The notes beneath the pieces were generated by a model. The model was not told the DNA's origin. It saw nothing but the letters and a program-made list of their open reading frames with translations, and ran no database searches. Made by a program: the position numbers and the translations under genes. From NCBI GenBank assembly GCA_028715985.1, contig JAQUQR010000004.1, positions 73,223-137,222 of the forward strand: DNA of 64,000 bases, given 5' to 3'. Below are positions 1,744 to 16,936 of the stretch, piece by piece (position 1 is the stretch's first letter; each line of letters begins with the position of its first letter). This DNA comes from Methanocellales archaeon. GTDB taxonomy: Archaea; Halobacteriota; UBA148.

Positions 1744-4700
1744 ATGAAGGGGGAAAAAATGAATAGTAGTAAACCTTTTAAAAATAGCGTTGACAGAAAA
1801 AAGATAACCTCGATAATATTAACAGCGATAATGTTGCTTTCGATATTTTCAGGCATCAGCGCTTCTGTAGCTGGGAATAACAACAACCGTGTTGGCAATA
1901 ACGTTGCTAGTCCGATGGAAGATGAAGGCGTGGGTGCAATGGCAGTCGGTAGCCTTGCAGCTAGCTTACATACATCATCTCCTTCTGCAAATATCGCCAA
2001 CTCGAGTGCTAACTTTACTAATGTCTTTTGGATTCGTTTTACCGCATCAGGTGAAAGTTCGAATATAACAAACATTACAATCACAGAGGCAGGAACGATT
2101 CACGGTACGAGTGAAATAATTGGAGTAGGCGTTAACGATACCGGTGGAACTGTGCTTGCTAAAAGCACTTTTTCTGCTGATAATGGAACGGCTACGCTTA
2201 CCATACCGGGTGGCTTCGAAGTGCCGGTTGGCACGCTGAAAGACCTCTACTTGTGGGTCAACACGACCGGATTTCCGCTTGGGCGTACGATAAAGCTGAC
2301 ATTAACGTCGTTCAATGCAACGGGTCTTGCTTCCGGACAAGCTGTTACAACGTCAGGAGTACCGCTTTCATCGAATGAAATAGCAGGTACTGGAAGGTTA
2401 ACGGCGGCAAACGGTCCAAGTGATGTTGCATCCCGCACCGTTAATGCAGGGGCAAACACAACTGGAATCGTGCTGGCGCAACTCAACTTCAGTGCAGAAA
2501 TCGAAGGATGCACGCTGAATACTGTTATGCTTACGGAAAATGGAACTGCAAACGGTACACAAGATTTCTCTGCTATTTATCTGGTGAATGATACCGATTC
2601 GGATGGCGTTTGGGATTCAAATGAGCCAATAGTAGGGACTACTGTGACTACGTTTTCCAAAGATAATGGCAGCGCAACCATAAGTGGAATTAGTAAAGCG
2701 ATACCGCTCAATGGCTGGTTAAATCTGCTGGTTGTGGTAAACACCACGAACCAGTTCTGGTCCGGTAACACTCTCAAGGTTAACATAACCAATGCGACGG
2801 ACTTCACCGCAACTGGTGCTACTTCGGGAGCAGCAACGGGCACATATGGAACCCCCTCATCGAATACAGCGACAGGGCAGGCAATGATTCAGGTGGCGGC
2901 AGGCGCCAAGCAGCCGTATCTCTCTTATGTGCTGGAAGGTCAAAGAGCATTGGTCGAGAGTGCACAGTTGAACTTCACTGCCATTGCAGGTCAGGTGAAC
3001 ATCACGCAAATTACGCTTGAGCAGTCGACGGTAACCAATTGGACCTATGCGGCCGCTGATACATTCCCCAAAGTCTACATAGATGTGGACGAGGATGGCA
3101 ATGTCACTGCTTTGGATACGCCATTAAACCTAACTGCGCTTAACTTTAAGACTAATAATGTGACTTTGGCGAGCTACGACACTACAATATCGGGCAATTT
3201 CTCAGATTATGCTAAACTAGCGAATGGTACGTTCCCGTATATACACATAGTAACTTTGACTAATGACACAATGGTTACAGCTTCATACCCAGAGTGGTGG
3301 TATAACATCAGCATTACCTACGTCAATAGTACTCATGCTACTGGTCAAACCAATACGACTTGGTCCAATATTACAAACGTCACAGTGGTCGATGCTGCAA
3401 ATGATACCTGGTGGCCTCTTGATATAGGCGCTAGTGAAATAGTGAGAGACATTACAGACATATCGTTCGTTACAGCTCACAATGTATCAGCTGTTGACAT
3501 CGACATCGTCGCAGGTTCACAAGTGATAGACGTTGTCTTGGATAGCAATCTAACAATTGGAAGCGTCAGTGAGACCACTGCAGGACAGGCATCGAAAATC
3601 ATCATAATAGCGGTGAATACAACTTCTGCATGGACTTCGGGCAACTATACGAAAGCATTACCCAATACGATTACAAAATACGGCAACTTCAGTAATTACG
3701 TTGCCTATGATGACACAACCGGGCAGATGACGAGGATATACCAGAACAATGACCCACTAAATACATCCATGAAGCAACTTAGTGCAGCAGTCGTTGGTGC
3801 AGTGTCCAATCCAGAGTTTAAGGTTCAGCTGGGAGCGAACACACCTACTTCCAATGTTGGCAAGAGCACCAATCTGGCTCCTGTGATGCAGTTGAGCTTC
3901 TCATATGGCGGCGTTGTAGGGGCTGATTTGGACTCAAAAGTATACCTGAGGGAATTAATCATTTCAACCAACGGCACGATCAACGAATCAAACAACGTCA
4001 CAGCATGTCTCGTTGTTGACACCAATGGCGATGGGGCAGTGAGTGCCGGTGAAACGATAGTAGCCAGTGTACTTTACTCAACCAATAATCAAACAATCAA
4101 GTTCACGCTCGCCACTCCGATCGAGATAATGCTCAACAATAAAGGCAATATGACATCAGAAGCTCTCATAGCCTACAAGCATTTGCTGATAGCATTCAAC
4201 ACATCTTCGAACATAGTTCTCGGTGAGACGATCAGACTCTACATGGACAACTCGTCCGTAGATTACATCGCCGATACAGGAACCAGCATGGTTGTAAACC
4301 AGACAAGTGCACAACTAATTGGGAACGCGCTAACAGCAGCAGGCTCAATAACAGCAACAAACACAAATGCGGTCACTGCTGGAACGGTTTCATCCGTGGT
4401 TGACGAGACCTACGTAGAACTAATACAGTTGAAGTTTACGGCAAGCAGCACTGAGGCTGTGAACATCACGAGCATAAATGTAACGTGGAACGGCACTGGC
4501 AATGGTTACGAGAAGACAAGCGGAATAGGGGTAATCAACGATACAGATATGGACGGTGTATGGGACATAACAGATACGGAACCGATGTTGAATAAAACGA
4601 CAATTGGAACTAATAACTTAGCATTCCTTAACGTGTCCTATGACAACCACAACATCACCGTTCCAGCAGGCGGGTCTGCCTATGTCTTGATATACGTGAA

Positions 4701-7359
4701 CACGACTGCTACTAGCATAAACACAAGTGATAAGATCGCATTGAACATAACGGCAGCGCCATACCTCAATTATAGCGCTGAGGGGAACGCCTCTAAGGTG
4801 ATCATCGCAGACCTCCAGACGACAACAATCTCTTCGGCAACGATGACTGCGGCTTGGACAGGAAGCATTAGCGCTGCAGGATACAACCTGACCGACAAGA
4901 CATGGGTCGAGGGTGCTCAGACGAACTTCCCAGTGTTGGCATTGAACTTCACAGCAACCAATGAAACGGCAAATATCACTTCGATGGTCCTAAGTGCATC
5001 TGGAACCGCCAATGAATCTGGCAATGTAACGCTAAAGCTGGTAGAGGATGTTGCACCGTTTGGCTCTTACGAGAGCGAGACGATATTAGCTACTGCAACT
5101 TTCACGGCTGACAATGGGGCGGTAACATTAACGCCGTCATCCCAGATTCAGGTGGTCGGTGGAAGCTACACGAAGGTACTTGTGGTCGCAGACATCACCG
5201 CAAAGGTTGAGGCAGGTACAAGCCTGGTGACTTCTTTGCTGGACCCATCTGTGCATTACAATGCGGTAGGTTACTACTCCGGAGCGAGAATCCAGGATGC
5301 AAGCACAACGGCGGTTTCAAACACGACATGGTCAACAGGAAACATTACGGTCCTCGTTGGAGCGAACAATACCATCACTGGACCGGTGGACGCACTGAAT
5401 AACACCTATGTTGAAGTAATGCAGTTGAACTTCTCGGCAACGTTCGGGATGGAAAACGTGAACATCACGGGAATCAACCTGACCGCAATGGGTACGGATC
5501 CATACAACGACACATGGGGAGTTGGACTCATCAACGATACAAATGCCAATGGTCTGATTGATGCCGGTGAAGCAGTAATTGGAAATGGCACATTCGATGT
5601 AAACGGCACGGCAGTAATCAATTTCGACTTTGTAGAGTATTGGAATCTGACGGTCAATGGCTCGGCTGTGCAAGAATGGGCAAATCAAACGTTCAACAAC
5701 ACGATCGTTTACGTGAATACGAGCAGCAACTTCAATGCCAGCGACTGGCTGCAGTTGAGACTGGAGAGCTACAACGCGACGGGCGTTACTTCCGGTCAAT
5801 CGTTAACCGCTTTCGGTACGACGATAACGTCCAACAAGCTCACCGGAACAGGGAACGTGACCGCTATGGATGGAGCCAGTGATGTGCTTAATGAAACAGT
5901 TATAAAGTCTGGTGTGAACACCAGCGTAGTGGTCTGGCAACTAAAACTCACGGCAGGAGCGGCTGAGAACATCACCATAACCAGCATAGACATATCAGAA
6001 AACGGAACCGCCAATGCGGCAACAGATATTGCAAGCATCTACCTGGTGAACGATACAAATGCGAATGGACTATGGAACACGACAGCAGGTGACAGCGGTA
6101 TCATTTCGAACGCAGGAACATTCACCGCCGATGATGGTACAGTAACGCTGACGCTGACTGCAAACAACACGGTACTTGCAGGGAATTCTGTTAATTACCT
6201 GCTGGTTGTGAACACAGCATCCACGTTCTACGAGGGAGAAACACTGTCGTTCTTCATTAACAGGTCAGCTCCAAACGGAGAGCCAACAAGAGTACAGGGA
6301 ATGATTGCAACCGGTGCAACTTCGGAAACAACCGTTTACAACAACTTCACATTCAGTCCAGCTTCGAACAAAACAATTGGGTCTGCCTGCATTGACGTCT
6401 ACGACACGACACAGACAACAGTAGCAATATATAACCAAACTGCCACCAACAAAGAGGTTCTCAGGGTGAACTTCAGTGCACCACAGGGAGCAGTGAACAT
6501 AACGAACATAACGCTGAGGGAGAACGGATCTGCACTGGTAGCACCTGGCGGAGGCATTCAGAATGTCAGTGTTTGGTACAATGGCGTGTGTTACAATAGC
6601 ACCTTGGCCAGTTTGTGGTCAGAGAACGGAACACTCCGCATAGAGACGGTGGGCATGGTCGTTAATGGCACGACCAACGAGGTTACGATAAAAGTGAACA
6701 CGACATCCGCTCTTGCAACTGGCCAGACAATAAACTTCGAACTCAACAGGACGTTAGGCAACGGATACAACGCATCGGGCAATGTTTCATTGAATATTAC
6801 CTCCAGTCAGACAGGCAACATAAGCAACCTGATTACGGTGCAGGGTGCACCATCAGGCGAGATATCCTTGAAGGCAGGTTGGAACTTCATTTCCGTGCCG
6901 AAGAAGCAGGATACCACCAAGGATACCTTTGGAGAGTTACTCGCTGGATGGACGACATGGACTGCATATTCATACAATGCAGCTACGAGTAGTTGGACAT
7001 CGTTGACTGCGAGCAGTTCAATCAATGACGATGTGTTAGCCGGTTACTGGGTCTACGTTGATACTGCGGGAACAGTCTATCTGTCTTACAAAGACGCAAG
7101 TTATTTACCACCACCAAGCAAAGCGCTTACAGGCAATGCATGGAATGCGATAGGCTTCTCGAACACTACTGCTCAGACTGCTGAGAATACATTGAAATCA
7201 GTGGATGGTTCGTGGAGCACAGTGATTGGATGGGATGCAACAAGCCAGAGCTATCAGGATGCAATCATCGAGGGTGACTTGACATCAACCATGAATCCCT
7301 TCCAGGGTTACTGGGTATGGATGACACAGGACGACACACTATCCGCAATAAGTGCCTAG
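1744..7359 (+). CDS. Giant (1871 aa) secreted, heavily N-glycosylation-sequon-rich cell-surface protein (S-layer/adhesin-like) with at least 6 internal ~150-aa repeats carrying DxDxDG Ca-binding-like loops and a divergent 2-copy C-terminal module
   Basis: It is a long uninterrupted ORF. The N-terminal hydrophobic segment (ITSIILTAIMLLSIFSGISASVAG) is a signal-peptide candidate. N-x-S/T sequons are very frequent. A repeated motif QLxF...NITxIxLxENGT...IYLVNDTDxDGxWD recurs. An alternative start is ATG 1759 (MNSS), which is preceded by GGGGG. Confidence 0.8.
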   Translation: MKGEKMNSSKPFKNSVDRKKITSIILTAIMLLSIFSGISASVAGNNNNRVGNNVASPMEDEGVGAMAVGSLAASLHTSSPSANIANSSANFTNVFWIRFTASGESSNITNITITEAGTIHGTSEIIGVGVNDTGGTVLAKSTFSADNGTATLTIPGGFEVPVGTLKDLYLWVNTTGFPLGRTIKLTLTSFNATGLASGQAVTTSGVPLSSNEIAGTGRLTAANGPSDVASRTVNAGANTTGIVLAQLNFSAEIEGCTLNTVMLTENGTANGTQDFSAIYLVNDTDSDGVWDSNEPIVGTTVTTFSKDNGSATISGISKAIPLNGWLNLLVVVNTTNQFWSGNTLKVNITNATDFTATGATSGAATGTYGTPSSNTATGQAMIQVAAGAKQPYLSYVLEGQRALVESAQLNFTAIAGQVNITQITLEQSTVTNWTYAAADTFPKVYIDVDEDGNVTALDTPLNLTALNFKTNNVTLASYDTTISGNFSDYAKLANGTFPYIHIVTLTNDTMVTASYPEWWYNISITYVNSTHATGQTNTTWSNITNVTVVDAANDTWWPLDIGASEIVRDITDISFVTAHNVSAVDIDIVAGSQVIDVVLDSNLTIGSVSETTAGQASKIIIIAVNTTSAWTSGNYTKALPNTITKYGNFSNYVAYDDTTGQMTRIYQNNDPLNTSMKQLSAAVVGAVSNPEFKVQLGANTPTSNVGKSTNLAPVMQLSFSYGGVVGADLDSKVYLRELIISTNGTINESNNVTACLVVDTNGDGAVSAGETIVASVLYSTNNQTIKFTLATPIEIMLNNKGNMTSEALIAYKHLLIAFNTSSNIVLGETIRLYMDNSSVDYIADTGTSMVVNQTSAQLIGNALTAAGSITATNTNAVTAGTVSSVVDETYVELIQLKFTASSTEAVNITSINVTWNGTGNGYEKTSGIGVINDTDMDGVWDITDTEPMLNKTTIGTNNLAFLNVSYDNHNITVPAGGSAYVLIYVNTTATSINTSDKIALNITAAPYLNYSAEGNASKVIIADLQTTTISSATMTAAWTGSISAAGYNLTDKTWVEGAQTNFPVLALNFTATNETANITSMVLSASGTANESGNVTLKLVEDVAPFGSYESETILATATFTADNGAVTLTPSSQIQVVGGSYTKVLVVADITAKVEAGTSLVTSLLDPSVHYNAVGYYSGARIQDASTTAVSNTTWSTGNITVLVGANNTITGPVDALNNTYVEVMQLNFSATFGMENVNITGINLTAMGTDPYNDTWGVGLINDTNANGLIDAGEAVIGNGTFDVNGTAVINFDFVEYWNLTVNGSAVQEWANQTFNNTIVYVNTSSNFNASDWLQLRLESYNATGVTSGQSLTAFGTTITSNKLTGTGNVTAMDGASDVLNETVIKSGVNTSVVVWQLKLTAGAAENITITSIDISENGTANAATDIASIYLVNDTNANGLWNTTAGDSGIISNAGTFTADDGTVTLTLTANNTVLAGNSVNYLLVVNTASTFYEGETLSFFINRSAPNGEPTRVQGMIATGATSETTVYNNFTFSPASNKTIGSACIDVYDTTQTTVAIYNQTATNKEVLRVNFSAPQGAVNITNITLRENGSALVAPGGGIQNVSVWYNGVCYNSTLASLWSENGTLRIETVGMVVNGTTNEVTIKVNTTSALATGQTINFELNRTLGNGYNASGNVSLNITSSQTGNISNLITVQGAPSGEISLKAGWNFISVPKKQDTTKDTFGELLAGWTTWTAYSYNAATSSWTSLTASSSINDDVLAGYWVYVDTAGTVYLSYKDASYLPPPSKALTGNAWNAIGFSNTTAQTAENTLKSVDGSWSTVIGWDATSQSYQDAIIEGDLTSTMNPFQGYWVWMTQDDTLSAISA

Positions 7360-7391
7360 TCAAAGCGCAACACAACAACAAAAAACAAAGA

Positions 7392-7440
7392 TAGGGAGAA
7401 TCAATCTCCCTAACATCTTTTTTTATTTTTATTTTCTTTT
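7392..7440 (+). terminator. Hairpin (AGGGAGA-ATCAA-TCTCCCT) followed by a long T-tract; candidate terminator of the giant gene
   Basis: A 7-bp inverted repeat is directly followed by tttttttatttttattttctttt. Archaeal terminators are oligo-T tracts. Confidence 0.45.
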
Positions 7441-7554
7441 AATTTCATTTTTTCATTGTTGATAAATACCAGTAGTTGATGGGAATGGCAAGAAAAACAA
7501 AAATTTATATTGTATATGGTAGTAAGTAAAGCGGAAAATACAATAAAATAAAAG

Positions 7555-8367
7555 ATGGATGTGAGGATGAAGGGCTATAATAAAAAACAGCTGTTGTATG
7601 CTATCTTGATCGTCTCTTTTTTGATGCTATTTTCGACTGTCGTGGTAGAAGCACAAGCACCAGTATTACCCTGTAGTTTTTATGGCAACGTTACCATCGA
7701 TGGGAAGCCTGCGCCCATAGGGACCGAGATCACAGCGAAAATGGATAATAAAACCTGTGGAAATATGACTGTAAGAGAAGAAGGTAAATATGGGGAATCA
7801 GCTGGGGAAAAATTAAGTGTGACCGGAAATATAGCGGACGAAAACAAGATAATTTCGTTCTACGTGGACGGAGATGAGGCGGAGGAAAAAGCTACATGGC
7901 AAATTGGAGGAGTTAACCGTCTGGATCTTAGCGTTAAGAAATCGAACATACAGACCCCTTCAAGTCCACCCTCTAGTGGTAGCGGGGGGATAAGTCCAAC
8001 CACGCCTGCACCAACGCCATCGTCCACTCTGGTTCCTGCGCCAACTCCAACCCCTACACCAACTTCTACTCCAACACCAACGCCTACCCCAACACCAGCA
8101 CCAACACCAGCACCAACTTCAACACCCCTACCAACACCAGCTCCTACACCAACATCAACTCCCACTCAAATGCCAACAACTACACCGACTCCCGCTCCTG
8201 TTTCTACTCCAAGACTATCGCTCATATCTGAGAGACCATCCTCTGAGAAGCCATCGAATGCCTTTGACTTAAATTCAGAGAAAATTATGCTAGTCTTTGG
8301 TATAATTTTGGTTGTATCAGCTTTGGTTGCATTAATGTTATATCGACGCAAAGGCGAGAAACTTTAG
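7555..8367 (+). CDS. Secreted surface protein with an N-terminal FYGxVTxxGxPAP beta-sandwich-like domain (family A), a Pro/Thr-rich linker and a C-terminal TM anchor with a basic tail (no PGF motif)
   Basis: Signal peptide [23 protein letters not shown]. The domain is shared with the 8464 gene. The linker is PTPTPTPT(S)[12 protein letters not shown]. The C-terminus is [27 protein letters not shown]. The start may be at M5 (7567). Confidence 0.7.
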
Positions 8368-8463: not shown

Positions 8464-10842
8464 ATGAGGCAAATAAGGGGAGATTTAATAAGAAAGTCGA
8501 CTTCGATCGGCGTCATTGGAATGCTTATACTTTCGATGTTAACTATGATGGCAGTGCCATCAGTATCGGGAGTTGACGTCTTTCTACCTGCTAGTTTTTA
8601 TGGAGACGTAACTGTGAATGGGGAACCCGCACCCGTTAATACAGTGGTTACAGGAAGAATAGTTGATGCCGTAGGATCACCTGGTCAGGGTAACATAACG
8701 GTAACCGAAGCAGGCAAATATGGCGTGGCTGCTGGTGAGAAATTAGGTGTTTCAACTGATAACGAAAATGATAACGAAAAAACGATAGAATTCTACATAA
8801 AACTTCCTTCCGGGTCGGAAGGCAAAGCGGATCAAACCGCGACTTTTTCCATTGGTGGTATTACCAAATTGAATTTAACCGCTACGGTGGTAATAGGGAC
8901 GCCACCAACCATAACATCCTATTCACCTACCGATACCACACCGAATGATTACGAGGCTGCGACAAGAACGTTCTCGGTCACCGTTGATCAGCCGACAACA
9001 GTGGCATGGAGTATAAATGGAACCGTGGTCGAAACAGATGCAGGCGTACCTGCTTCTACAGCCGCCAGTTATACGAATGGGAGTGCTGTCGAAGGTTATT
9101 GGTCAGTTTCTGCGGTTGCAACGAACGTTACCTCAGGGTTGTCTGATACACAGACTTGGGAGTGGATGGTGGAGGACATAACGCCACCGGCAAAGGTAAC
9201 TGGATTGACAAGTGACACACCCACTCTTACCACCGTTAACCTTACGTGGGATGCAAGTACAGCCTCAGACTTTTTAAAATATAGCGTGTACAAGAATGGG
9301 GCACTATTGGACAATACCACAAATACATATTATAATGTAACTGGTTTGGAGGCCAGCACAACTTACTACTTTAACGTTTCCGCATGGGATGATAGCGACA
9401 ATGAAGGAGAATTGAGCGCTGGTGTTACCATAACGACGGCTTCCTACCCTGCACCAATTATTGTGGGTTATAACAACGTAACAGGCAGTTCACTCAGTAT
9501 AACGGTTAACGAAATGGAAGCAATACGGTTCAATGCAACTGCCGATCAAGCTATTACCACTTGGAATTGGTTCAGGGATGGGGTAAATCAGATTTGGAAT
9601 TACGATAGCTTTGAAACGTGCTGGAGCGTTAACGGAACCTACAGCGTTGCCGTGAATGCTACCAATGCAAATGGCACATCGAACACGGTTACATGGACGA
9701 TCGTGGTGAATGACATAACTTCGCCAGCGATGGTGACGGGATTAACGAATGGCACGCCAAGTTCCACTGGGGTTGATTTGTGGTGGACAGCAAACACAGA
9801 AGCGGACCTCGTCGGATACAGGGTATATCAGGACGGTTTGTTACTTGTAACCACTGCTAACGCCTACTACAGCGTAACCGGATTATCGCCAGCCACGACA
9901 TATACATTCAACGTTTCGGCATATGATGACAATGCTTTGGAAGGCGAGAACGCAACCATAAGTGTGACCACATCGCTCTATTCGGCACCAACGATCACTT
10001 CCTACACCATATCTAATCGCACCATTGCACCGCCGCAGACCACTGATATAGATGTGGCATTTTCGGAAGTGGTGGAAGCCTGGATACAAATCGAGGATTC
10101 AAACCACAACCTTGTGAAGGAATTGTATCACAGCTCCAGCGTAACCAATCCGACCGCTAAGACTTGGGATGGGACCTACACGAATGCAACCGTTGTTCCA
10201 GATGGCACCTATTACGTAAACGTTACGGGAATAAACGCAACAACTGGCTTGAGCGTGGTTGACAATACGCAGAGTATCGTGGTGGCATCTGAGGTAACCA
10301 TTCAGTACAACCTCGTCAAGAATCCCGGAAGCACGGGCAAGAACTGGATCAGCATACCGCTCACCACAAACATCACAACCGCATCCCAACTGATGTCTGT
10401 AATAGGGTCCAACTGCGATGCAGTCAACCGATGGAATCCTGTTACCCAGAAACCAGAAGGCTGGATCTCACTGATGGGCGGCATGGGCACTAACTTTGCA
10501 ATAGTGCCTGGCGAAGGCTACGAGGTATCGGTTACTGCGAATACGACCTTCAGCGTGACAGGTGCACCTGCAACCATCAGCCAGATTGACCTCGTCAAGA
10601 AACCCGGAAGCACGGGCAAGAACTGGATCGGTTTGCCCTACGACACCACGCTTACGTCTGCATCTACGGTGATGAGTTCAATAGGATCCAACTGCGATGC
10701 AGTCAACCGATGGAACCCTGTTACTCAGAAACCAGAAGGCTGGATCTCACTGATGGGCGGCATGGGCACTAACTTTGCCATCGTAACGGGCAGGGGATAC
10801 GAGGTATCGGTCACAGGCAATGTGACCTGGACACCTGTTTGA
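8464..10842 (+). CDS. Secreted modular surface protein (792 aa): family-A N-terminal domain, PKD-like domains, two fibronectin-III-like domains, an Ig-like domain and two tandem copies of the conserved KNWIS...GYEVSV C-terminal module
   Basis: Signal peptide IGVIGMLILSMLTMMAVPSVSG. FN3-like motifs (VNLTWDAS...YKNG...TxYxFNVSAWDD) occur twice. The C-terminal module copies lie at about 10300-10563 and 10585-10839. Confidence 0.8.
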   Translation: MRQIRGDLIRKSTSIGVIGMLILSMLTMMAVPSVSGVDVFLPASFYGDVTVNGEPAPVNTVVTGRIVDAVGSPGQGNITVTEAGKYGVAAGEKLGVSTDNENDNEKTIEFYIKLPSGSEGKADQTATFSIGGITKLNLTATVVIGTPPTITSYSPTDTTPNDYEAATRTFSVTVDQPTTVAWSINGTVVETDAGVPASTAASYTNGSAVEGYWSVSAVATNVTSGLSDTQTWEWMVEDITPPAKVTGLTSDTPTLTTVNLTWDASTASDFLKYSVYKNGALLDNTTNTYYNVTGLEASTTYYFNVSAWDDSDNEGELSAGVTITTASYPAPIIVGYNNVTGSSLSITVNEMEAIRFNATADQAITTWNWFRDGVNQIWNYDSFETCWSVNGTYSVAVNATNANGTSNTVTWTIVVNDITSPAMVTGLTNGTPSSTGVDLWWTANTEADLVGYRVYQDGLLLVTTANAYYSVTGLSPATTYTFNVSAYDDNALEGENATISVTTSLYSAPTITSYTISNRTIAPPQTTDIDVAFSEVVEAWIQIEDSNHNLVKELYHSSSVTNPTAKTWDGTYTNATVVPDGTYYVNVTGINATTGLSVVDNTQSIVVASEVTIQYNLVKNPGSTGKNWISIPLTTNITTASQLMSVIGSNCDAVNRWNPVTQKPEGWISLMGGMGTNFAIVPGEGYEVSVTANTTFSVTGAPATISQIDLVKKPGSTGKNWIGLPYDTTLTSASTVMSSIGSNCDAVNRWNPVTQKPEGWISLMGGMGTNFAIVTGRGYEVSVTGNVTWTPV

Positions 10843-10957: not shown

Positions 10958-13393
10958 ATGCTGAAAAATAAGTTCATTTTTATTTCGGTTTTGATGGTGG
11001 CTTTTCTGGCACTGGCAAGCGGGGCCCAGGCAGCCCACTGGATTGCTGGTACTGTCAACGATGCAGCAGACGGCAAGCCTGCTGATGGGCATACGGTCAT
11101 CATATACTATCTGGGCGACGAAGCCCGTAATAATTCTGGCATCATAGGTCCAACGGTTGAGAATCCTGATATTTTAAATAACAAGTACCAGATTGATGCC
11201 CAAGCGATTCCAGGCCATACATGGAAAGAAGGCGATGTAATCTATGCGAAAGTAATTGACAACGGAGACGGCTATACTGCTGGACCGGTTTCCGTGACTA
11301 CAACAGGTGCAGGATACGATGTTGAGCCTGACATGACCCTTCAAGCCTCTGTAATGGCGAATGCAGGTCCTGACCAGATGGTTGATGAAGATGTTATAGT
11401 ATATTTCAACGGCTCAGCCTCCACTATGGCAGTCAATTACTCCTGGGACTTCGATGCCAGCGATGGAATCCAGGAGGATGCTACAGGAGTTAACGTGAGC
11501 CATGTCTATGCCGATCCCGGTGTATATACAGTAACCCTCACCATAAACGCCGGAGCGAGCAATGACACCCTAATAGTCACCGTAAACGACATCACGTCCC
11601 CAACAGCCAATGCAGGTTCGGATCAGACCGTTTTAAACGGTACAACAGTGACATTTAACGGCACCTTATCCACCGATAACGTCGCCATAGTAAACTACTC
11701 TTGGGACTTCGATGCCAGTAACGGCATCCAGGAGGATGCTACAGGTGCTGTTGTGACCTATCTTTATCCCGCTTTTGGCACCTACACGGCAACCCTTACC
11801 GTATCTGACGCAGCAGGCAACAATGACACGGACACGGTCAATATAACTGTCACGGAGGTCAGAGCAGATGCAGGTCCTGACCAGACGGTTGATGAAGACA
11901 CGGTGGTCTATTTCAACGGTTCCAACTCTTCAGGTGCGTTAAACCACTCCTGGGATTTCGATGTAAGCGACGGCATCCAATCAGATGCCACAGGAGTTAA
12001 CGTGAGCCATATCTACGCTCAACCAGGCGTTTACACCGTAACCCTCACCATAAACGCCGGAGCGAGCAATGACACCCTTGTCGTCACAGTGAATGACATC
12101 ACGCCCCCAACAGCCAACGCAGGTCCAGATCAGAACGTTCTAAACGGCACTCTTGTGCAATTCAATGGAACGTTATCCACCGACAATGTCGCTATAGTAA
12201 ACTACTCCTGGGACTTCGATGCCAGCGATGGCATTCAAGAGGACGCTACAGGTGCTGTTGTGACCCATCTTTATCCCGCTTTTGGCACCTACACGGCAAC
12301 CCTTACCGTATCTGACGCAGCAGGCAACAATGACACTGACATAGTCAACATCACCGTCGCGGCAATAATAGCAGATGCAGGTCCTGACCAGACGGTTAAC
12401 GAGGACATCGTAGTCTATTTCAACGGCTCAGGCTCTTCAGGTGCGTTAAACTACTCTTGGGATTTCGATGCAAGCGACGGCATCCAATCAGATGCCACAG
12501 GAGTTAACGTGAGCCATATCTACGCTCAACCAGGCGTTTACACCGTAACCCTCACCATAAACGCCGGAGCGAGCAATGACACTCTAACGGTCACAGTAAA
12601 GGATGTAACGCCACCGACAGCCAATGCGGGTCCCAACCAAATTGTATTAAACGGCACTTTTGCTGAATTCAATGGATCATCATCCACCGATAACGTCGCT
12701 ATAGTAAACTACTCCTGGGACTTCGATGCCAGCAACGGCATTCAGGAGGATGCTACAGGCGCTATAGTAACCCATCTTTACCCAACCTTTGGCACCTACA
12801 CGGCAACCCTCACCGTATCTGACGCAGCAGGCAACAATGACACTGACACCGTTAACGTCAGCGTAGTGCCTTCAGTTGCACCCATTGGATTGACAGTGGT
12901 GTTAAATGCGGATAATACGGTCACATTAACCTGGGTTGAATCCCTTTTGGGCAATTTTGACATCTATGCATCAAACACATCTGGAGTCAGCCTAGTTACT
13001 CCCATAGCTACAGGTTATGGATATTCTTGGACAGATAACGATGCGGATGCTTATTCCCATAGGTATTATAAGGTCAGAGCCAAGGGAATTATTGGGTCCG
13101 AAACCATTGCAAAATATGACGTTAACCTCGTCAAAAAGCCCGGCGGCACAGGTAAGAATTGGATATCGATGCCTGAAAATCCTGCCATTACAAATGCATC
13201 CTCCTTAATGAAGGCAATAGGGCCCACATGTGACTCCATAAACCGATGGAACCCTGTTACCCAGAAACCAGAAGGCTGGATCTCACTGATGGGCGGCATG
13301 GGCACGAATTTTGCTGTTACACCCTATGAAGGCTACGAGGTATCTGTCAACGCCAACACAACGTTTACTGTTGTGGGAATCATGGGCTATTAG
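10958..13393 (+). CDS. Secreted PKD-repeat surface protein (811 aa): family-B N-terminal domain (AHWIxGTVNDAAD...), three tandem units of 169 aa that are 2 PKD domains each, then one copy of the conserved C-terminal module
   Basis: Signal peptide FISVLMVAFLALASGAQA|AHW. PKD signatures (NYSWDFDASDGI...HxYxxPGVYTVTLTI) recur. The C-terminal module lies at about 13112-13375. Confidence 0.85.
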   Translation: MLKNKFIFISVLMVAFLALASGAQAAHWIAGTVNDAADGKPADGHTVIIYYLGDEARNNSGIIGPTVENPDILNNKYQIDAQAIPGHTWKEGDVIYAKVIDNGDGYTAGPVSVTTTGAGYDVEPDMTLQASVMANAGPDQMVDEDVIVYFNGSASTMAVNYSWDFDASDGIQEDATGVNVSHVYADPGVYTVTLTINAGASNDTLIVTVNDITSPTANAGSDQTVLNGTTVTFNGTLSTDNVAIVNYSWDFDASNGIQEDATGAVVTYLYPAFGTYTATLTVSDAAGNNDTDTVNITVTEVRADAGPDQTVDEDTVVYFNGSNSSGALNHSWDFDVSDGIQSDATGVNVSHIYAQPGVYTVTLTINAGASNDTLVVTVNDITPPTANAGPDQNVLNGTLVQFNGTLSTDNVAIVNYSWDFDASDGIQEDATGAVVTHLYPAFGTYTATLTVSDAAGNNDTDIVNITVAAIIADAGPDQTVNEDIVVYFNGSGSSGALNYSWDFDASDGIQSDATGVNVSHIYAQPGVYTVTLTINAGASNDTLTVTVKDVTPPTANAGPNQIVLNGTFAEFNGSSSTDNVAIVNYSWDFDASNGIQEDATGAIVTHLYPTFGTYTATLTVSDAAGNNDTDTVNVSVVPSVAPIGLTVVLNADNTVTLTWVESLLGNFDIYASNTSGVSLVTPIATGYGYSWTDNDADAYSHRYYKVRAKGIIGSETIAKYDVNLVKKPGGTGKNWISMPENPAITNASSLMKAIGPTCDSINRWNPVTQKPEGWISLMGGMGTNFAVTPYEGYEVSVNANTTFTVVGIMGY
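11357..12877 (+). repeat. Tandem DNA repeat of 3 x about 507 bp inside the PKD gene (each unit encodes two PKD domains), about 90 percent identical
   Basis: The unit boundary GCAGATGCAGGTCCTGACCAG recurs at about 11357, 11864 and 12371. Long identical runs are visible between copies. Confidence 0.8.
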
Positions 13394-13458: not shown

Positions 13459-14709
13459 ATGAGAGCGAATAAACTTATTTTTATTTCGGTCTTAACAGTG
13501 GCTTTCCTGGCACTGATGAGCGGAGCGCAAGCAGCCCACTGGATTTCTGGAACGGTCAACGATGCCGCAGACAGCACGCCAGCAAACGGACACAAGGTCA
13601 TCATCTACTATCTGGGAGACCAAGCCCATAACGTATCCGACACCATAGGTCCCGCTGGTATGTCTGGTACGAGTAACATGTATATGTGTGATGCTGAGTC
13701 CATTCCAGGTCACGTATGGGCTCCCGGCGATGTAATCTACGCCAAGGTAATTGACACCGGCGACGGCTACACTGCTGGGCCAGTTTCTGTGACTACCACA
13801 GGTGCAGGCTTCGATACTGAGCCTACCATGACACTCGAAATTTGGGTACCGCCACCCATCGTGGCAGAGCCCCAGGCAAGCCCATCGCAAATAAGCATCA
13901 ATACAGGCGTTACGGAACTGAGCGTCAAAGTGTACAAAACCTCTTATGACATTGATACGGTTACAGTAAACCTCTCTCAAATTGGTGGTCTGAGTAATCA
14001 CATGATGAGCCTCAAGGAAGTCATTAACGCTACGGCCTCCATTTATAATTGTACAACCAACTCAAGTGTGGAAGGTACTTTTAGTCTTCCGGTAAATGCC
14101 ACAGACATCTACGGCAATTCCAACACATCCGTTAGCATTTCTCTGGAGGTCACAAGTGCCATTCAAATCCAGTACAACCTCGTCAAAAAGCCTGGAAGCA
14201 CAGGCAAGAACTGGATCAGCATACCTCTTGAAACGAACATTACAACAGCATCCCAATTAATGTCTGCAATAGGATCCAACTGCGATGCAGTCAACCGATG
14301 GAACCCTGTTACCCAGAAATCAGAAGGCTGGATTTCACTATTTGGAGGCATGGGCACTAACTTTGCAATAGTGCCTGGCGAAGGCTACGAAGTATCGGTC
14401 ACAGCAAACACGACTTTCTCAGTCTTAGGAACCATACCCACCACACAAAGCATCAATCTCGTCAAAAAACCTGGCAGCACTGGCAAGAATTGGGTCGGAC
14501 TTCCCTACTTCACAACCAAATCCAATGCCTCTCAACTGATGAGTTCAATAGGATCCAACTGCGATGCAGTCAACCGATGGAACCCTGTTACCCAGAAATC
14601 AGAAGGTTGGATTTCACTATTTGGAGGCATGGGTACGAACTTCAACATCACAACAGGCGCAGGCTACGAAGTATCGGTTACAGGAAATACGACATGGATG
14701 CCTACTTGA
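13459..14709 (+). CDS. Secreted surface protein (416 aa): family-B N-terminal domain, a central Ig-like region and two tandem copies of the conserved C-terminal module
   Basis: Signal peptide FISVLTVAFLALMSGAQA|AHW is nearly identical to those of the 10958 and 14779 genes. Module copies lie at about 14161-14425 and 14452-14706. A TATA-like aagtatatatatg and a GGGAGG RBS lie upstream. Confidence 0.85.
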   Translation: MRANKLIFISVLTVAFLALMSGAQAAHWISGTVNDAADSTPANGHKVIIYYLGDQAHNVSDTIGPAGMSGTSNMYMCDAESIPGHVWAPGDVIYAKVIDTGDGYTAGPVSVTTTGAGFDTEPTMTLEIWVPPPIVAEPQASPSQISINTGVTELSVKVYKTSYDIDTVTVNLSQIGGLSNHMMSLKEVINATASIYNCTTNSSVEGTFSLPVNATDIYGNSNTSVSISLEVTSAIQIQYNLVKKPGSTGKNWISIPLETNITTASQLMSAIGSNCDAVNRWNPVTQKSEGWISLFGGMGTNFAIVPGEGYEVSVTANTTFSVLGTIPTTQSINLVKKPGSTGKNWVGLPYFTTKSNASQLMSSIGSNCDAVNRWNPVTQKSEGWISLFGGMGTNFNITTGAGYEVSVTGNTTWMPT

Positions 14710-14778: not shown

Positions 14779-16143
14779 ATGAAACAGAAAATATGTCTTG
14801 TATTTGTCTTAACAGTGGCTTTCTTGGCACTGATGAGCGGGGCTCAAGCAGCCCACTGGATTTCTGGAACGGTCAACGATGCCGCAGACAGCACGCCAGC
14901 AAACGGACACACGGTCATCATCTACTATCTGGGAGATGAAGCCAATTATGTATCCGACACCATAGGTCCAACCGGCGCATCTGGTACAAATAACATGTAT
15001 ATGTGCGATTCGGAGTCCATTCCAAACCATGTATGGGCTCCCGGCGATGTGATCTACGCGAAAGTAACAGACAATGGAGATGGCTACACCGCTGGACCGG
15101 TTTCCGTGACTACAACAGGTGCAGGCTTTGATGTTATGCCTGCCATGACACTTCAGGCAGCACCAGACACAACAGCACCTGTGATAACAAGCCCAACAGC
15201 AACCCCATCTTCAATACCTGCGGATGGAGCTACGACATCTGTGTTGAACGCAACGGTAACGGATAATGTCGGCATCGCAAGCGTTACAGTGGACCTCTCT
15301 ACAATAGGGGGCTCTGCTACGACAGCGATGACGAAGGTTGGCACTACAGACGTTTACAGCGTAACCACGACTGCATCGACATCGACAGCCTTAGGAACCA
15401 AAAGCTTAACAGTCACTGCGACTGACACTAATACCACTCCGAATACGGCAACCAGTAGCATTTCATTGACTGTTACAGCCGTACCAGACACATTTGCACC
15501 CATAGTTACCAACCCAACTGCGACGCCATCCACCATATACGCAAACGGGATTGCAACATCTCAGTTGAGCGTAACGGTAACGGATGGTACTGGCATCGCA
15601 AGCGTTACAGTGAACCTCTCTGCAATAGGGGGCTCTGCTACGACAGCGATGACGAAGGTTGGCACTACAGACGTTTACAGCGTAACCACGACCGCAGCGC
15701 CAACGACAGCACCTGGGACCTACAACTTGGCTGTTACTGCGACAGACAGCAGTACGAACGCTAACACCAACACATCGGTTAGCATTTCATTGACGGTTCA
15801 GGCGTTGCCTGTGACCATCACGTCAGTCTCGATCGACGATTCAACCGCCAGCAAGGGACAGAACTTCACTGCGCGCATAAACATGAGTTCAACTGTTACT
15901 GGGTGGTATGTCGTTGTTGTCAGTGGAATTGAATCCGGCGGAGAAGGTATAGCTGGTATAGGAACGGTCTATTTAACTGCAAGTCAGTCTGTAACGAATA
16001 TGCCTGTACTCGTGCATATCCCGTCTCAGGCAACAGTGGGTAGTTATACCCTCTATGCAGGAGCATATGCGATAGGTGACTATCCAGCAAACCTAGCAAG
16101 CATAATAGACCATGCAGGGCCTGTGACTGCGACGGTCACATGA
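14779..16143 (+). CDS. Secreted surface protein (about 455 aa): family-B N-terminal domain, 2 x 106-aa tandem Ig-like repeats and a distinct C-terminal beta-domain; it lacks the KNWIS module
   Basis: The ORF track starts at 14761. ATG 14779 (MKQKICLVFVL) is preceded by GAAGGGAG. The N-terminal coding sequence is about 95 percent identical in DNA to the 13459 gene. Confidence 0.8.
   Translation: MKQKICLVFVLTVAFLALMSGAQAAHWISGTVNDAADSTPANGHTVIIYYLGDEANYVSDTIGPTGASGTNNMYMCDSESIPNHVWAPGDVIYAKVTDNGDGYTAGPVSVTTTGAGFDVMPAMTLQAAPDTTAPVITSPTATPSSIPADGATTSVLNATVTDNVGIASVTVDLSTIGGSATTAMTKVGTTDVYSVTTTASTSTALGTKSLTVTATDTNTTPNTATSSISLTVTAVPDTFAPIVTNPTATPSTIYANGIATSQLSVTVTDGTGIASVTVNLSAIGGSATTAMTKVGTTDVYSVTTTAAPTTAPGTYNLAVTATDSSTNANTNTSVSISLTVQALPVTITSVSIDDSTASKGQNFTARINMSSTVTGWYVVVVSGIESGGEGIAGIGTVYLTASQSVTNMPVLVHIPSQATVGSYTLYAGAYAIGDYPANLASIIDHAGPVTATVT
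15160..15797 (+). repeat. Tandem 2 x about 318-bp repeat with an 80-bp core of near-100 percent identity, inside the 14779 gene
   Basis: The stretch ctctct(a/g)caatagggggctctgctacgacagcgatgacgaaggttggcactacagacgtttacagcgtaaccacga occurs twice. Confidence 0.8.
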
Positions 16144-16153
16144 CTCTTTTGAT

Positions 16154-16936
16154 TTGTGGGGAGATGAACTAACCATGAAAAAAAGAGTTGAATGGGGAAT
16201 TGTTTTAGCAATTCTCGTATTGGCATCTTCATTAATCGCACCCGCATCTGCTGTAGATCAGCTTGCTATTTCAGTCTCTCCTGATCCAGCGGTTCAAGAC
16301 CTAGCCTTAACGGTAACCGTTACAGCGTCAGGCAGTCCTGTCTCAGGCGTATTCGTACAGTTTATCCTGAATGGTGGAACGCCAATATATGCATCGACGG
16401 ATGCAAGCGGTCAAGCGATATTTAAACCGCTTCTGACAGGCACATTGGAGATAATTGCGACAAAATCAGGGTATCTAACCGCAACTAAATCTGTATCGGT
16501 TGGGGTGGCGCCTACGCCTACACCCACGCCCACACCTACACCCACGCCTACGCCCGTAACTCCTGGAACAGGTGGCGGCGGGTACGTACCGTCACCTACA
16601 CCGACGGCAACACCAACAGCAACACCAGCGCCAACAGCAACACCAACAGCAACACCAACAGCAACACCAACAGCAGCACCAGCACCCACACCAGCACCCA
16701 CACCAGCACCCACACCTGCACCCACACCTGCGCCAACACCGAAACCAACACCAGCACCTACACCAGCACCCACACCAGCGCCTACACCAAAACCAACACC
16801 AGCACCTACAGTCAGACCAACGCTAGCCCCAGCTCCAACACCCACGCCAACGCCTGGTATACCGGGATTTGAGGCAGCCTTCGCAATCGTTGGACTCCTA
16901 GCGGTTGCATATTTGATTAGACGAAGAGAATATTAA
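16154..16936 (+). CDS. Secreted PGF-CTERM protein (archaeosortase A substrate) with a PEGA/carboxypeptidase-regulatory-like beta-domain and a long Pro/Thr/Ala linker
   Basis: Signal peptide [18 protein letters not shown]. The C-terminus [27 protein letters not shown] is the canonical PGF-CTERM pattern (PGF, then TM, then Arg-rich end). The gene starts 11 bp after the previous stop. Confidence 0.85.
16508..16858 (+). repeat. Low-complexity microsatellite-like DNA (ACACCAGCACC-type units) encoding the PT/PA linker; it generates artefactual ORFs in other frames
   Basis: Tandem acaccagcacccacaccagc units. The antisense ORF (16411..16845) is poly-GV and the +2 frame ORF is poly-QH. Confidence 0.8.

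What the first reader, a model, noticed from the sequence alone, without database searches (positions are those of the whole stretch)
1744..16936. Accessory island of seven co-oriented, modular, sequon-rich surface-protein genes with shuffled N- and C-terminal cassettes
Seven consecutive plus-strand genes all encode signal-peptide proteins. They combine a small set of modules. N-terminal family A (FYGxVTxxGxPAP) occurs in the 7555 and 8464 genes. N-terminal family B (AHWIxGTVNDAADxxPAxGHxVIIYYLGD, carboxypeptidase-regulatory/PEGA-like feel) occurs in the 10958, 13459 and 14779 genes. The middles are PKD, FN3 or Ig-like repeats. The ends are the conserved C-terminal module, a plain TM anchor or PGF-CTERM. 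Signal peptides of family B (VAFLALxSGAQA|AHW) are nearly identical, and the 13459 and 14779 genes are about 95 percent identical over their first ~130 bp. This combinatorial pattern suggests a recombination-driven surface-variation or assembly system rather than a single S-layer gene.
Basis: partly seen in the sequence, partly recalled or inferred. Interest (0 to 1): 0.7.

Follow-up and report, generated by a model that had tools for sequence, protein, structure and literature searches.

The report
Modular archaeal cell-surface protein gene cluster
This is the conserved cell-envelope gene cluster of an uncultured methanogen (Methanocellaceae): seven secreted proteins built from shared, unannotated head and tail modules that recombine among themselves and that, from gene neighbourhoods in distant archaea, may be a head-to-tail docking pair for displaying proteins on the cell surface.

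Summary
Seven co-oriented genes (1744-16936) encode secreted proteins built from three shared modules: N-A (2 genes), N-B (3 genes) and a ~90-aa C-terminal module (5 clear copies, plus a divergent tandem on the 1871-aa giant).

It is not an accessory island. The cluster sits between the same core genes in at least four related lineages, one of them a single-cell genome.

Recombination is real. It shows as gene-conversion tracts in N-B and in the C-module core, an in-frame two-gene fusion (g7555), a 174-aa unit indel (g8464), and synonymous divergence 1.5-4 times that of flanking genes. Nothing indicates programmed variation: no silent cassettes, inverted repeats or recombinase.

New findings:
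- The C module defines a large family with no match in the Pfam or NCBIfam copies searched: 1591 cluster representatives, usually a tandem pair at the extreme C-terminus of diverse passengers.
- In all seven distant loci examined, an N-B gene lies adjacent to, or within 5 kb of, the C-tandem gene.
- That N-B gene usually carries a membrane anchor or a dockerin-like tail.

I infer, without proof, that N-B docks C-tandems, forming a dock-and-anchor envelope whose outer layer is the sequon-rich giant protein.

The parts
639..1743 (+). 1.1-kb AT-rich non-coding leader upstream of the giant gene, with an archaeal BRE/TATA-like motif AAAAATTTATATA at 1670-1682
   Evidence: Sequence read. Motif scan: 9 matches in the window against 2.2 expected. 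No Rfam hit. This region is only ~77% identical to UBA148, whereas the adjacent aconitase gene is 92% identical.
1744..7359 (+). g1744 (NCBI start 1759, PHD13_03215): a 1871-aa secreted giant with 110 N-glycosylation sequons. It has nine ~170-aa repeats (about 1972-6885) followed by a divergent C-like tandem (about 6886-7356). Candidate outer-layer (S-layer-type) glycoprotein.
   Evidence: only 22 homologues, none with a functional annotation; sequon z 12.3; nine repeats; C-like tandem; hhalign probabilities 88% and 73%. No Pfam, NCBIfam or PDB sequence match.
7392..7412 (+). Hairpin followed by a long T-run (terminator-like) after g1744. A TATA-like motif for g7555 lies at 7499-7511.
7555..8367 (+). 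g7555: signal peptide, N-A head (7663-7938), Pro/Thr linker and a C-terminal TM helix. In this genome it is an in-frame fusion of two neighbouring genes that are separate in relatives.
   Evidence: L003, L005, L019 and L020 have two genes here. The first (172-176 aa) carries an N-A head; in L003, L005 and L019 its TM anchor was read. The second is 215-264 aa in L003, L005 and L019 (second head + PT linker + TM) and is cut off at the contig end in L020. The W protein matches residues 1-134 of the first gene (68%) and the linker plus TM of the second.
8464..10842 (+). g8464: signal peptide, N-A head (8581-8889), two [Ig + fn3] units, a FlgD_ig-like domain, and C modules C1 (10306-10557) and C2 (10585-10836). 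The segment 9210-9731 is an extra 174-aa unit absent from relatives.
   Evidence: 612-617 aa in L005 and L019 against 792 aa here. The indel ends fall at the repeated DIT[PS]PAxVTGLT motif.
10958..13393 (+). g10958: signal peptide, N-B head (11033-11356), six PKD domains (three 507-nt double units), an fn3-like domain (by eye) and a single C1-type C module (13121-13372).
   Evidence: PKD_4, E 2.7e-95, 6 stretches; repeat families D3/D5.
13459..14709 (+). g13459 (PHD13_03235): signal peptide, N-B head (13534-13848), one Ig-like domain, then C1 (14173-14424) and C2 (14452-14703). It has both a head and a tail, so it is a candidate connector.
   Evidence: AlphaFold2 model with pLDDT 88.5. Single C module modelled at pLDDT 95.7.
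13489..13619 (+). Conversion tract shared with 14806-14936 in g14779 (about 97% identical, synonymous sites included). It is flanked by an unrelated 5' end and by ~80% identity downstream.
   Evidence: (D7).
14779..16143 (+). g14779 (PHD13_03240): signal peptide, N-B head (14851-15165), two 321-nt Ig-like repeats (15146-15755) and a C-terminal beta domain. It has no anchor of its own.
   Evidence: (D8). More distant orthologues of this gene (L004, L007, L022) end in a PT linker plus PGF-CTERM.
16175..16936 (+). g16175: signal peptide, CarboxypepD_reg-like beta-sandwich (about 16310-16516), a long Pro/Thr linker (about 16553-16878) and PGF-CTERM (about 16859-16927). It starts 31 nt after g14779 and is probably co-transcribed with it. 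A membrane-anchored stalk.
   Evidence: (TIGR04126 37.5 bits against a cut-off of 24.5). It is intact in L003 although the gene caller missed it there.

Best explanation
The region is the chromosomal cell-envelope locus of an uncultured Methanocellaceae lineage (window = GCA_028687135.1; the nearest named relative is 'Methanocellaceae archaeon UBA148').

Shown:
- It encodes a giant, heavily sequon-rich repeat protein plus six smaller secreted proteins.
- These proteins are assembled from a small kit: N-A or N-B heads, Ig/fn3/PKD spacers, and one of several tails (C-module tandem or single copy, TM helix, or PGF-CTERM).
- The kit arose by duplication and is kept partly homogenised by gene conversion.
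- The locus is syntenic in relatives, yet its alleles are far more divergent than the genome background.
- The C module belongs to a large family with no match in the Pfam or NCBIfam copies searched. It sits, usually as a tandem pair, at the extreme C-terminus of very diverse extracellular passenger proteins.
- N-B genes are adjacent or close to C-tandem genes in distant archaea.

Inferred:
- N-B is the receptor for the C tandem.
- Membrane-anchored stalk proteins, and N-B proteins anchored by TM, PGF-CTERM or dockerin-like tails, hold C-tandem-tailed passengers on the cell. The logic resembles cohesin-dockerin or SlaB-SlaA.
- In this lineage g10958 and g13459 carry both a head and a tail, so they could act as connectors or form head-to-tail chains.
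- The giant g1744 would be the glycosylated outer layer, docked through its own divergent tandem.
- Within-genome homogenisation of the N-B loop and the C core would keep all heads compatible with all tails while alleles diverge between strains, plausibly under virus or predator pressure.
For: Identity and synteny.

Modules.

C-module family:
- 1591 representatives at E<=1e-3 and 574 at E<=1e-10.
- Of 169 retrieved proteins, 139 carry a tandem pair and 145 end within 10 aa of the C-terminus.
- Passengers include subtilase, VWA, LTD, Laminin_G_3, NosD beta-helix, cohesin, TIG and MAM domains.
- The giant's tail is a distant member of the family.

Anchors look mutually exclusive in the window. 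Proteins with C modules have no TM or PGF. The two PT-linker proteins have TM or PGF and no sequon enrichment. The sequon-rich proteins are exactly the four that bear C or C-like modules.

N-B/C linkage in distant loci:
- L015 (Aenigmatarchaeota), L017 and L016 (Methanosarcinales): the C-tandem gene is followed by a gene of the form SP-N-B-...-TM.
- L028 (Altiarchaeales): followed by SP-N-B with a dockerin-like tail.
- L025: the N-B gene lies directly upstream and overlaps the C-tandem gene by 8 nt.
- L026: a weaker N-B-like domain (E 3e-6) lies directly downstream.
- L027: an N-B gene lies 4.6 kb away.
- Nearer relatives L004, L007, L022 and L023: a g5-type gene is followed by a g6-type N-B gene. 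In L004, L007 and L022 that gene ends in PGF-CTERM; in L023 its C-terminus is cut off by the contig end.

Concerted evolution:
- In the N-B body there are 30 'genome-grouping' sites in the W/UBA148 quartet, and every site inside the domain body is of that type. All 42 'orthology' sites lie at the 5' end and downstream of the domain.
- The C1/C2 core has dS 0.11-0.25 against 0.6-2.1 in the flanks.
- A Lys-to-Arg codon change is fixed in all five UBA148 copies, and a Ser-Ala replacement in all three SAG copies.

Allelic divergence: dS is 0.30-0.82 in the island against 0.12-0.23 in the flanks, and the N-B loop has dS 0.7-1.2.
Against: - No binding evidence of any kind exists. No multimer model could be run.
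- The adjacency sample is small: seven distant loci plus four nearer relatives. It is not a systematic neighbourhood statistic.
- One distant case (L026) rests on a weak N-B match, and in another (L027) the N-B gene is not adjacent.
- The L025 N-B protein has no obvious anchor.
- In the window itself g14779 (N-B) has no anchor, and the only anchored proteins (g7555, g16175) carry N-A or CarboxypepD_reg heads rather than N-B. The local wiring therefore needs extra assumptions.
- Shared genome-specific residues could arise from conversion alone, without any co-evolving interface.
- Nothing shows that g1744 forms a lattice.
- All sequences come from MAGs, one SAG or metagenome contigs. Some length variants may therefore be assembly collapses of repeats: the L005 PKD gene, the fused C1/C2 in L006, and the gap in L003.
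Confidence: 0.5

Rival explanations
1. Ordinary paralogous surface-protein cluster. The modules are shared only because of tandem duplication and domain shuffling, with occasional gene conversion. N-B and the C module have independent roles (for example adhesion or generic beta-sandwich spacers), and their neighbourhood in other archaea reflects common descent of a duplicated gene pair, not physical docking.
For: The modular beta-sandwich architecture is what Pfam reports for such proteins: PKD, fn3 and Ig-type domains. Gene conversion alone explains the within-genome homogenisation. No interaction data exist.
Against: The linkage persists across Methanocellales, Methanosarcinales, Altiarchaeales, Aenigmatarchaeota and unclassified archaea, although the passenger parts are unrelated: cohesin, TIG, MAM, or giant repeats. 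The C module sits strictly at the C-terminus of unrelated passengers. Anchors on the N-B partners complement it. These patterns are those of a targeting or docking module rather than a spacer.
Confidence: 0.28
2. The C-module tandem is a glycan-binding or wall-binding anchor (functionally like SLH, or a lectin). It attaches passengers to the N-glycans of the sequon-rich giant protein or to another envelope polymer. N-B is not its partner.
Against: No significant structural or sequence match to any carbohydrate-binding module was found. This reading does not explain the conserved N-B neighbour. It also does not explain why the giant protein carries the same kind of tandem.
Confidence: 0.13
3. 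A dedicated recombination-driven antigenic or phase-variation system. Cassettes would be actively exchanged to change the displayed surface.
For: Conversion tracts, a gene fusion and a unit indel between close lineages. Strongly elevated dS in the locus.
Against: There are no silent or promoterless cassettes: all genes are complete, each with a signal peptide and most with a TATA-like motif. There are no significant inverted repeats and no recombinase or mobile-element gene in the window. Gene order and architectures are conserved across lineages, and orthologues persist down to 56% identity. Among close genomes most C modules cluster by orthologous slot.
Confidence: 0.06
4. Assembly artefact: the shared segments are collapsed or chimeric repeats in a MAG.
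For: The source is a MAG. Some relatives show suspicious breaks: an N gap in the L003 fn3 gene, a truncated PKD gene in L005 and a fused, frameshifted C1/C2 in L006.
Against: The copies are 70-97% identical, not 100%. All reading frames in the window are intact. Four contigs carry the identical g13459 protein. The same architecture appears in independent assemblies, including a single-cell genome and two assemblies of UBA148 that agree at 99.7%.
Confidence: 0.03

Closest known systems
Cohesin-dockerin surface assembly (cellulosome-type scaffolding, also reported in archaea)
   Same: A small C-terminal tandem module on diverse passenger proteins, paired with a receptor domain on anchored or adaptor proteins. 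Adaptors that carry both domains allow hierarchical assembly. In some relatives the two systems are physically mixed: P0070 carries cohesin plus a C tandem, and the N-B proteins of L024, L028 and P0034 end in dockerin-like DxDxDG segments (by eye).
   Different: No window protein hits the cohesin or dockerin Pfam models. The C module is a ~90-aa beta-rich domain with one helix, not a 22-aa EF-hand pair. N-B is an N-terminal ~105-aa domain. Binding between them is untested.
SlaA/SlaB two-component S-layer of Sulfolobales (from my own knowledge of that system)
   Same: A very large, heavily N-glycosylated outer protein is encoded next to a small secreted protein with beta-sandwich domains and a C-terminal membrane anchor. 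L015 and L017 show exactly this pair: a protein of at least 2178 aa with a C tandem, followed by SP-N-B-linker-TM.
   Different: No sequence similarity was detected to any curated S-layer family. The window locus has seven genes, several heads and several tails. Lattice formation is unknown.
PGF-CTERM / archaeosortase-anchored glycoproteins
   Same: g16175 has a bona fide PGF-CTERM after a Pro/Thr linker. g6-type orthologues in L004, L007 and L022 also do.
   Different: Only one of the seven window proteins uses it. The dominant tail is the much larger C module, which has no hydrophobic segment.
Type IX secretion C-terminal domain (CTD) of Bacteroidota
   Same: A beta-rich domain of roughly 80-100 aa at the extreme C-terminus of very diverse secreted passengers.
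   Different: The TIGR04183 match is below its cut-off and lies inside a PKD repeat, not in the C module. The hosts named so far are archaea without an outer membrane. The module usually comes as a tandem pair.
Concerted evolution of tandem surface-protein paralogues by gene conversion, as described for bacterial surface-antigen gene families (from my own knowledge)
   Same: Short conversion tracts homogenise paralogues within a genome while alleles diverge between strains.
   Different: There is no expression-site/silent-cassette organisation and no evidence of a high switching rate.

Membership tests
PGF-CTERM sorting-signal proteins (archaeosortase A substrates) | PGF motif, hydrophobic helix and basic tail at the extreme C-terminus, scoring above the curated cut-off | tested here: met
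   g16175 only: PF18204 at 40.6 bits (cut-off 18.8) and TIGR04126 at 37.5 bits (cut-off 24.5).
PGF-CTERM sorting-signal proteins (archaeosortase A substrates) | An archaeosortase (ArtA) gene in the same genome | not tested
   Only the 64-kb window was available. No such gene is seen in it.
PKD / fn3 domain surface proteins | Pfam domain hits above the gathering score | tested here: met
   g10958: PKD_4 at 313 bits, 6 copies. g8464: fn3 at 46.7 bits, 2 copies.
Cohesin-dockerin system | Cohesin (PF00963) and dockerin (PF00404) domains in the proteins concerned | tested here: not met
   No such hits in any of the seven window proteins. They occur only in some distant C-module or N-B proteins.
T9SS C-terminal sorting domain | TIGR04183/Por_Secre_tail match at the C-terminus, above the cut-off | tested here: not met
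   18.8 bits, below the 23-bit cut-off, at residues 339-369 of g10958, which is inside a PKD repeat.
Curated archaeal S-layer protein families (e.g. NF041431 S_layer_MEMAR) | Profile match above the cut-off | tested here: not met
   No Pfam or NCBIfam hit for g1744. The only S-layer-family hit is g16175 against NF041431, at 21.4 bits with a cut-off of 600, and it covers only the PGF tail.
Two-component S-layer (SlaA/SlaB-like organisation) | The large glycoprotein forms a lattice and is held by an adjacent membrane-anchored stalk protein | not testable with these tools
   Only the gene arrangement and the sequon density are compatible.
Cassette-based antigenic or phase-variation loci | Silent promoterless cassettes plus an expression site, or invertible segments with inverted repeats and a site-specific recombinase | tested here: not met
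   All genes are complete, each with its own signal peptide. The only inverted repeat is one 18-nt pair at 83% complementarity. No recombinase was found in the window.
Pfam PF27237 'AF_1625_C' (a newer Pfam family seen only in precomputed annotation) | Profile match over the C-module region | not testable with these tools
   It is listed for P0082 only and is absent from the local Pfam copy. It is not recorded for the window proteins or for P0070, P0085 and P0123, which have equally good C tandems. It is therefore probably a different domain.
C-module tandem family (defined here, profiles A3/it2) | A ~85-aa module with the NW(I/V)(S/G)xP ... (R)WN ... Q ... NF ... GxGYE motif, ending within ~10 aa of the stop codon and usually duplicated | tested here: met
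   g8464, g10958 and g13459 score 137-178 bits per module across the two profiles. g1744 matches only by profile-profile comparison.

The most novel reading that the evidence does not exclude
N-B and the C-terminal tandem are the two halves of a previously undescribed, widespread archaeal dock-and-anchor system. N-B heads, carried on membrane-anchored or dockerin-bearing stalks, would capture the C-tandem tails of S-layer-type giants, proteases, adhesins and other exoproteins. The system would occur from Methanocellales to DPANN and Altiarchaeales. Head and tail alleles would co-evolve within each genome by gene conversion.
Probability: 0.35. Interest if true: 0.8.

Novelty: new variant of a known kind. 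Interest (0 to 1): 0.6.

Why it matters
How most uncultured archaea build and decorate their envelopes is unknown. Known anchors (TM helices, PGF-CTERM lipidation, SlaB-type stalks) cover only part of their exoproteomes.

A ~90-aa tail with no match in the Pfam or NCBIfam copies searched, present on about 1600 protein clusters including 2000-4800-aa giants, with a candidate cognate head domain next door, would give a testable rule. The rule would say which proteins are surface-displayed and how, in methanogens, DPANN and Altiarchaeales. It would also supply a new orthogonal protein-protein docking pair.

The locus is in addition a clean natural example of concerted evolution combined with allelic hyper-divergence in an archaeal envelope locus. 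That pattern is expected under virus pressure.

Tried and rejected
- Foldseek of the full-length g13459 model against PDB gave only generic Ig-string matches.
- Pfam, NCBIfam and PDB sequence searches of the C module and of g1744 were empty.
- The third large protein search, with a 61-sequence profile, returned only 6 short hits and added nothing.
- The genome-contig scan used a single narrow peptide pattern and returned only 11 loci.
A systematic neighbourhood count was therefore not possible.
- Plain self-BLAST of g1744 found no repeats. An iterated HMM was needed to find them.
- The sigma-70 promoter scan is not applicable to archaea and was below the shuffle expectation.
- Rfam gave no hit. 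tblastn against phage genomes gave no hit.
- Literature searches found nothing on this locus, on UBA148 envelopes or on AF_1625.
- Rejected as explanations: a horizontally acquired island (same position in relatives, normal GC), programmed inversion or cassette switching, and assembly collapse.
Full report
**Source and setting.** The window is contig JAQUAS010000003.1 of GCA_028687135.1, a MAG labelled 'Methanocellales archaeon' with PHD13_ locus tags. The closest named relative is 'Methanocellaceae archaeon UBA148'. The island lies between an aconitase-family gene (9-638) and a YchF-like GTPase (17082). Downstream come a CBS protein, rpl15e, RNase P subunits, the proteasome alpha subunit, SBDS, exosome subunits and, further on, RNA polymerase, SMC and aspartyl-tRNA synthetase. 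This is core chromosome. GC content in the island (0.45-0.50) is like the rest of the window.

**Check of the observation.** All seven + strand ORFs exist. Each begins with a basic n-region, a hydrophobic core and an AxA-type cleavage site.
- N-A occurs in g7555 and g8464 (E 3e-24).
- N-B occurs in g10958, g13459 and g14779.
- The ~84-aa C module occurs twice in g8464, once in g10958 and twice in g13459.
- None of these modules occurs elsewhere in the 64 kb.
- Pfam sees only fn3 (with a FlgD_ig match just below its cut-off) in g8464, six PKD domains in g10958, and CarboxypepD_reg plus PGF-CTERM in g16175. NCBIfam adds nothing.

The '95% over the first 130 bp' statement needs refinement. Upstream DNA and the first ~36 nt of g13459 and g14779 are unrelated (58% identity). 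Then 13489-13619 and 14806-14936 are ~97% identical, and identity decays to ~80% afterwards.

Sequon enrichment is real but restricted to four proteins: g1744 (110 sequons, z 12.3 against composition-preserving shuffles), g10958, g8464 and g13459. The two PT-linker proteins and g14779 are not enriched. Other window ORFs have 0.32 sequons per 100 aa.

**The giant protein.** g1744 has only 22 detectable homologues, none with a functional annotation, mostly 1700-2400 aa. An iterated HMM resolves nine ~170-aa repeats. Its last ~160 residues, and those of its homologues, form two modules of the 'GWNxIS ... GYWV' type. A profile of the C module matches both of them (hhalign probabilities 88% and 73%, near full length; hmmsearch hits at the expected C-terminal position). 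Four of the seven proteins therefore end in C-type modules, and they are exactly the four sequon-rich ones.

The gene is preceded by a 1.1-kb AT-rich leader carrying a perfect BRE/TATA-like motif at 1670-1682. It is followed by a hairpin and T-run. This is compatible with a strongly expressed monocistronic envelope gene, but that reading is an inference.

**Not an accessory island.**
- The same gene order at the same chromosomal position is found in UBA148: L003, plus the independent assemblies L019 and L020, with L019 99.7% identical to L003.
- STD1_76 (L006) shows the right-hand part of the cluster and its junction with the GTPase gene.
- The single-cell genome SAG AM-311-A10 (L005) shows the same gene order on a contig that ends inside the cluster.
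- More distant relatives keep only parts, notably the g5-g6 pair (L004, L007, L022, L023).
- Full-length orthologues of g13459 exist down to 56% identity.

**Evidence for recombination.**
1. Divergence. W and UBA148 are 92-96% identical in the flanking genes. They are only 73-80% identical from the end of the aconitase gene through g1744, g7555 and the 5' two-thirds of g8464, and 85-93% identical further right. Synonymous divergence is 0.12-0.23 in nine flanking genes, against 0.64 (g1744), 0.82 (g7555), 0.53 (g8464 N-part and g10958) and 0.30-0.36 (g13459, g14779, C modules). dN/dS stays at 0.13-0.46. The alleles are therefore older than the genomes, as expected for imported or long-maintained envelope alleles. 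Simple fast adaptive change on a clonal background does not explain this.
2. N-B loop. All three N-B domains show a sharp dip to 68-74% identity at the same internal loop. There dN is ~0.4 and dS 0.7-1.2.
3. Conversion between g13459 and g14779. In the W/UBA148 quartet, every informative site inside the N-B body groups the two paralogues of one genome together (30 such sites in the quartet, with no 'orthology' sites inside the domain). The signal-peptide n-region and everything downstream of the domain follow orthology. N-B trees group g5 and g6 by genome in UBA148, L007 and L004.
4. Conversion in the C module. Among close genomes the modules cluster by orthologous slot. In L007 and L004 they cluster by genome. 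The 28-codon core has dS 0.11-0.25 between C1 and C2 of one gene, against 0.6-2.1 in the flanks. Genome-specific states are shared by all copies: Lys in all five W copies against Arg in all five UBA148 copies, and Ser-Ala in all three SAG copies.
5. Structural variants. W's g7555 is an in-frame fusion. It joins the N-A head of a 172-176-aa gene (its TM anchor was read in L003, L005 and L019) to the PT-linker and TM of the next gene. Both genes are present and separate in L003, L005, L019 and L020. W's g8464 carries an extra 174-aa unit (9210-9731) whose ends fall in the repeated 'DIT(P/S)PAxVTGLT' motif. PT-linker length differs even between two UBA148 assemblies (264 against 240 aa).

Some other length differences coincide with gaps or frameshifts and may be assembly problems: the truncated PKD gene in L005, the fused C1/C2 in L006 and the split fn3 gene in L003.

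**No programmed variation.** Every gene is complete. There are no promoterless copies, no significant inverted repeats and no recombinase or transposase.

**What the C module is.**
- An AlphaFold2 model of one module is very confident (pLDDT 95.7). It has six strands plus one helix.
- It has no Pfam or NCBIfam model in the copies searched.
- A profile search of 1.84 billion cluster representatives finds 1591 proteins at E<=1e-3 and 574 at E<=1e-10.
- Among the 169 sequences in hand, 139 have exactly two modules and 145 end within 10 residues of the last module.
- Passengers are unrelated to one another: subtilase S8, VWA, LTD, Laminin_G_3, NosD beta-helix, cohesin, TIG, MAM, PKD and fn3. Protein lengths reach 4871 aa.
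- The hosts named so far are archaea: the Methanocellaceae UBA148 lineage, Methanosarcinales, Altiarchaeales, Woese-, Pace- and Aenigmatarchaeota. One locus (L026) has SLH and GH94 neighbours and may be bacterial.

This is the signature of a C-terminal targeting or anchoring domain.

**The N-B / C-tandem linkage.** I scanned every fetched locus with the module HMMs.
- L015 (Aenigmatarchaeota) and L017: a protein of at least 1800-2178 aa ending in the tandem is followed by SP-'AHWIVGYVN...'-N-B, a beta domain, a Thr-rich linker and a TM helix.
- L016 (Methanosarcinales): the next gene is SP-N-B, thrombospondin-type repeats (by eye) and a TM helix.
- L028 (Altiarchaeales): the cohesin plus C-tandem protein is followed by SP-N-B with a dockerin-like tail.
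- L025: a 472-aa N-B gene overlaps the start of the 2417-aa C-tandem gene by 8 nt.
- L026: the next gene starts with a weaker N-B-like domain (E 3e-6).
- L027: an N-B gene lies 4.6 kb away.
- L004, L007 and L022: the g6-type N-B protein ends in a PT-linker plus PGF-CTERM. In L023 the g6-type gene is cut off by the contig end.

All seven distant loci, and all nearer ones, therefore link the two domains, although the passengers differ. The N-B partner usually carries the anchor.

I infer that N-B is the dock for the C tandem. In the window lineage the design is elaborated:
- two membrane-anchored stalks (g7555 with an N-A head; g16175 with a CarboxypepD_reg head and PGF-CTERM);
- three proteins with a head and a tail (g8464: N-A...C-C; g10958: N-B...C; g13459: N-B...C-C);
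- one head-only protein (g14779);
- the giant with a divergent tail.

Within-genome homogenisation of the N-B loop and the C core fits binding partners that must stay mutually compatible, but conversion alone could produce the same pattern. This step is inference. I put it at roughly 35-50%.

**Comparison with known systems.** Functionally the closest analogues are cohesin-dockerin assembly and the SlaA/SlaB two-component S-layer. Membership in either fails on sequence. The T9SS CTD is similar only in position and size. PGF-CTERM applies to g16175 alone. A newer Pfam family, PF27237 'AF_1625_C', appears in the precomputed annotation of one distant family member. It is not recorded for the window proteins or for three other C-tandem proteins, and I could not inspect it.

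**Verdict.** The 'accessory island' and 'variation system' parts are not supported.

Noticed in passing
L003:3325-4119 vs L019:16324-17046: Two assemblies of the same species (99.7% identical) differ in the Pro/Thr linker length of the second stalk protein (264 vs 240 aa). This is strain-level copy-number variation of the PT repeat, or assembly slippage.
   Followed up: partly
L006:2140-2573: In STD1_76 the g13459 orthologue has C1 (profile positions 1-55) joined out of frame to C2 (positions 35-83). This is either an unequal crossover between the tandem modules or a collapsed assembly.
   Followed up: no
L005:8631-9982: In the single-cell genome the PKD gene has about 2.5 PKD domains, then a frameshift, then a separate 93-aa ORF holding the C module. 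This is a possible repeat collapse or a pseudogene.
   Followed up: no
L025 (P0082): The precomputed annotation lists Pfam PF27237 'AF_1625_C' for this 2417-aa C-tandem protein. The family is absent from the local Pfam copy and from the other C-tandem proteins checked, so its relation to the C module is unknown.
   Followed up: partly
L026:11342-15426: A C-tandem protein with 15 TIG repeats is followed by an N-B-like protein ending in a FlgD_ig/T9SS-like tail, and then by an SLH-domain protein, with a GH94 gene nearby. The domain pair may therefore also occur in bacteria.
   Followed up: no
C-module family members listed: A subfamily of the C module carries a Cys-rich insertion (consensus roughly TCNxxSCPxxxxCTxTNCNF) between the 'WN..Q' and 'NF' motifs. 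This suggests a disulfide-stabilised or metal-binding loop at the position that varies between genomes in the window lineage.
   Followed up: no
L024:1154-1897, L028:8860-9462, P0034: Several N-B proteins end in dockerin-like DxDxDG...DL segments (by eye). The Altiarchaeales locus also encodes a TM-anchored cohesin protein. This points to cross-wiring of N-B/C modules with cohesin-dockerin systems.
   Followed up: partly
window 58001-60000: GC drops to 0.36, against ~0.45 elsewhere, around the 58438-58650 intergenic region and the PEP-utilizers-domain gene (58651-59748).
   Followed up: no
window 639-1743: The 1.1-kb non-coding leader of the giant gene has no Rfam match. It diverges from UBA148 as much as the giant gene itself (~77%), although the adjacent aconitase gene is 92% identical. 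The hyper-divergent block therefore starts exactly at the end of the upstream core gene.
   Followed up: partly
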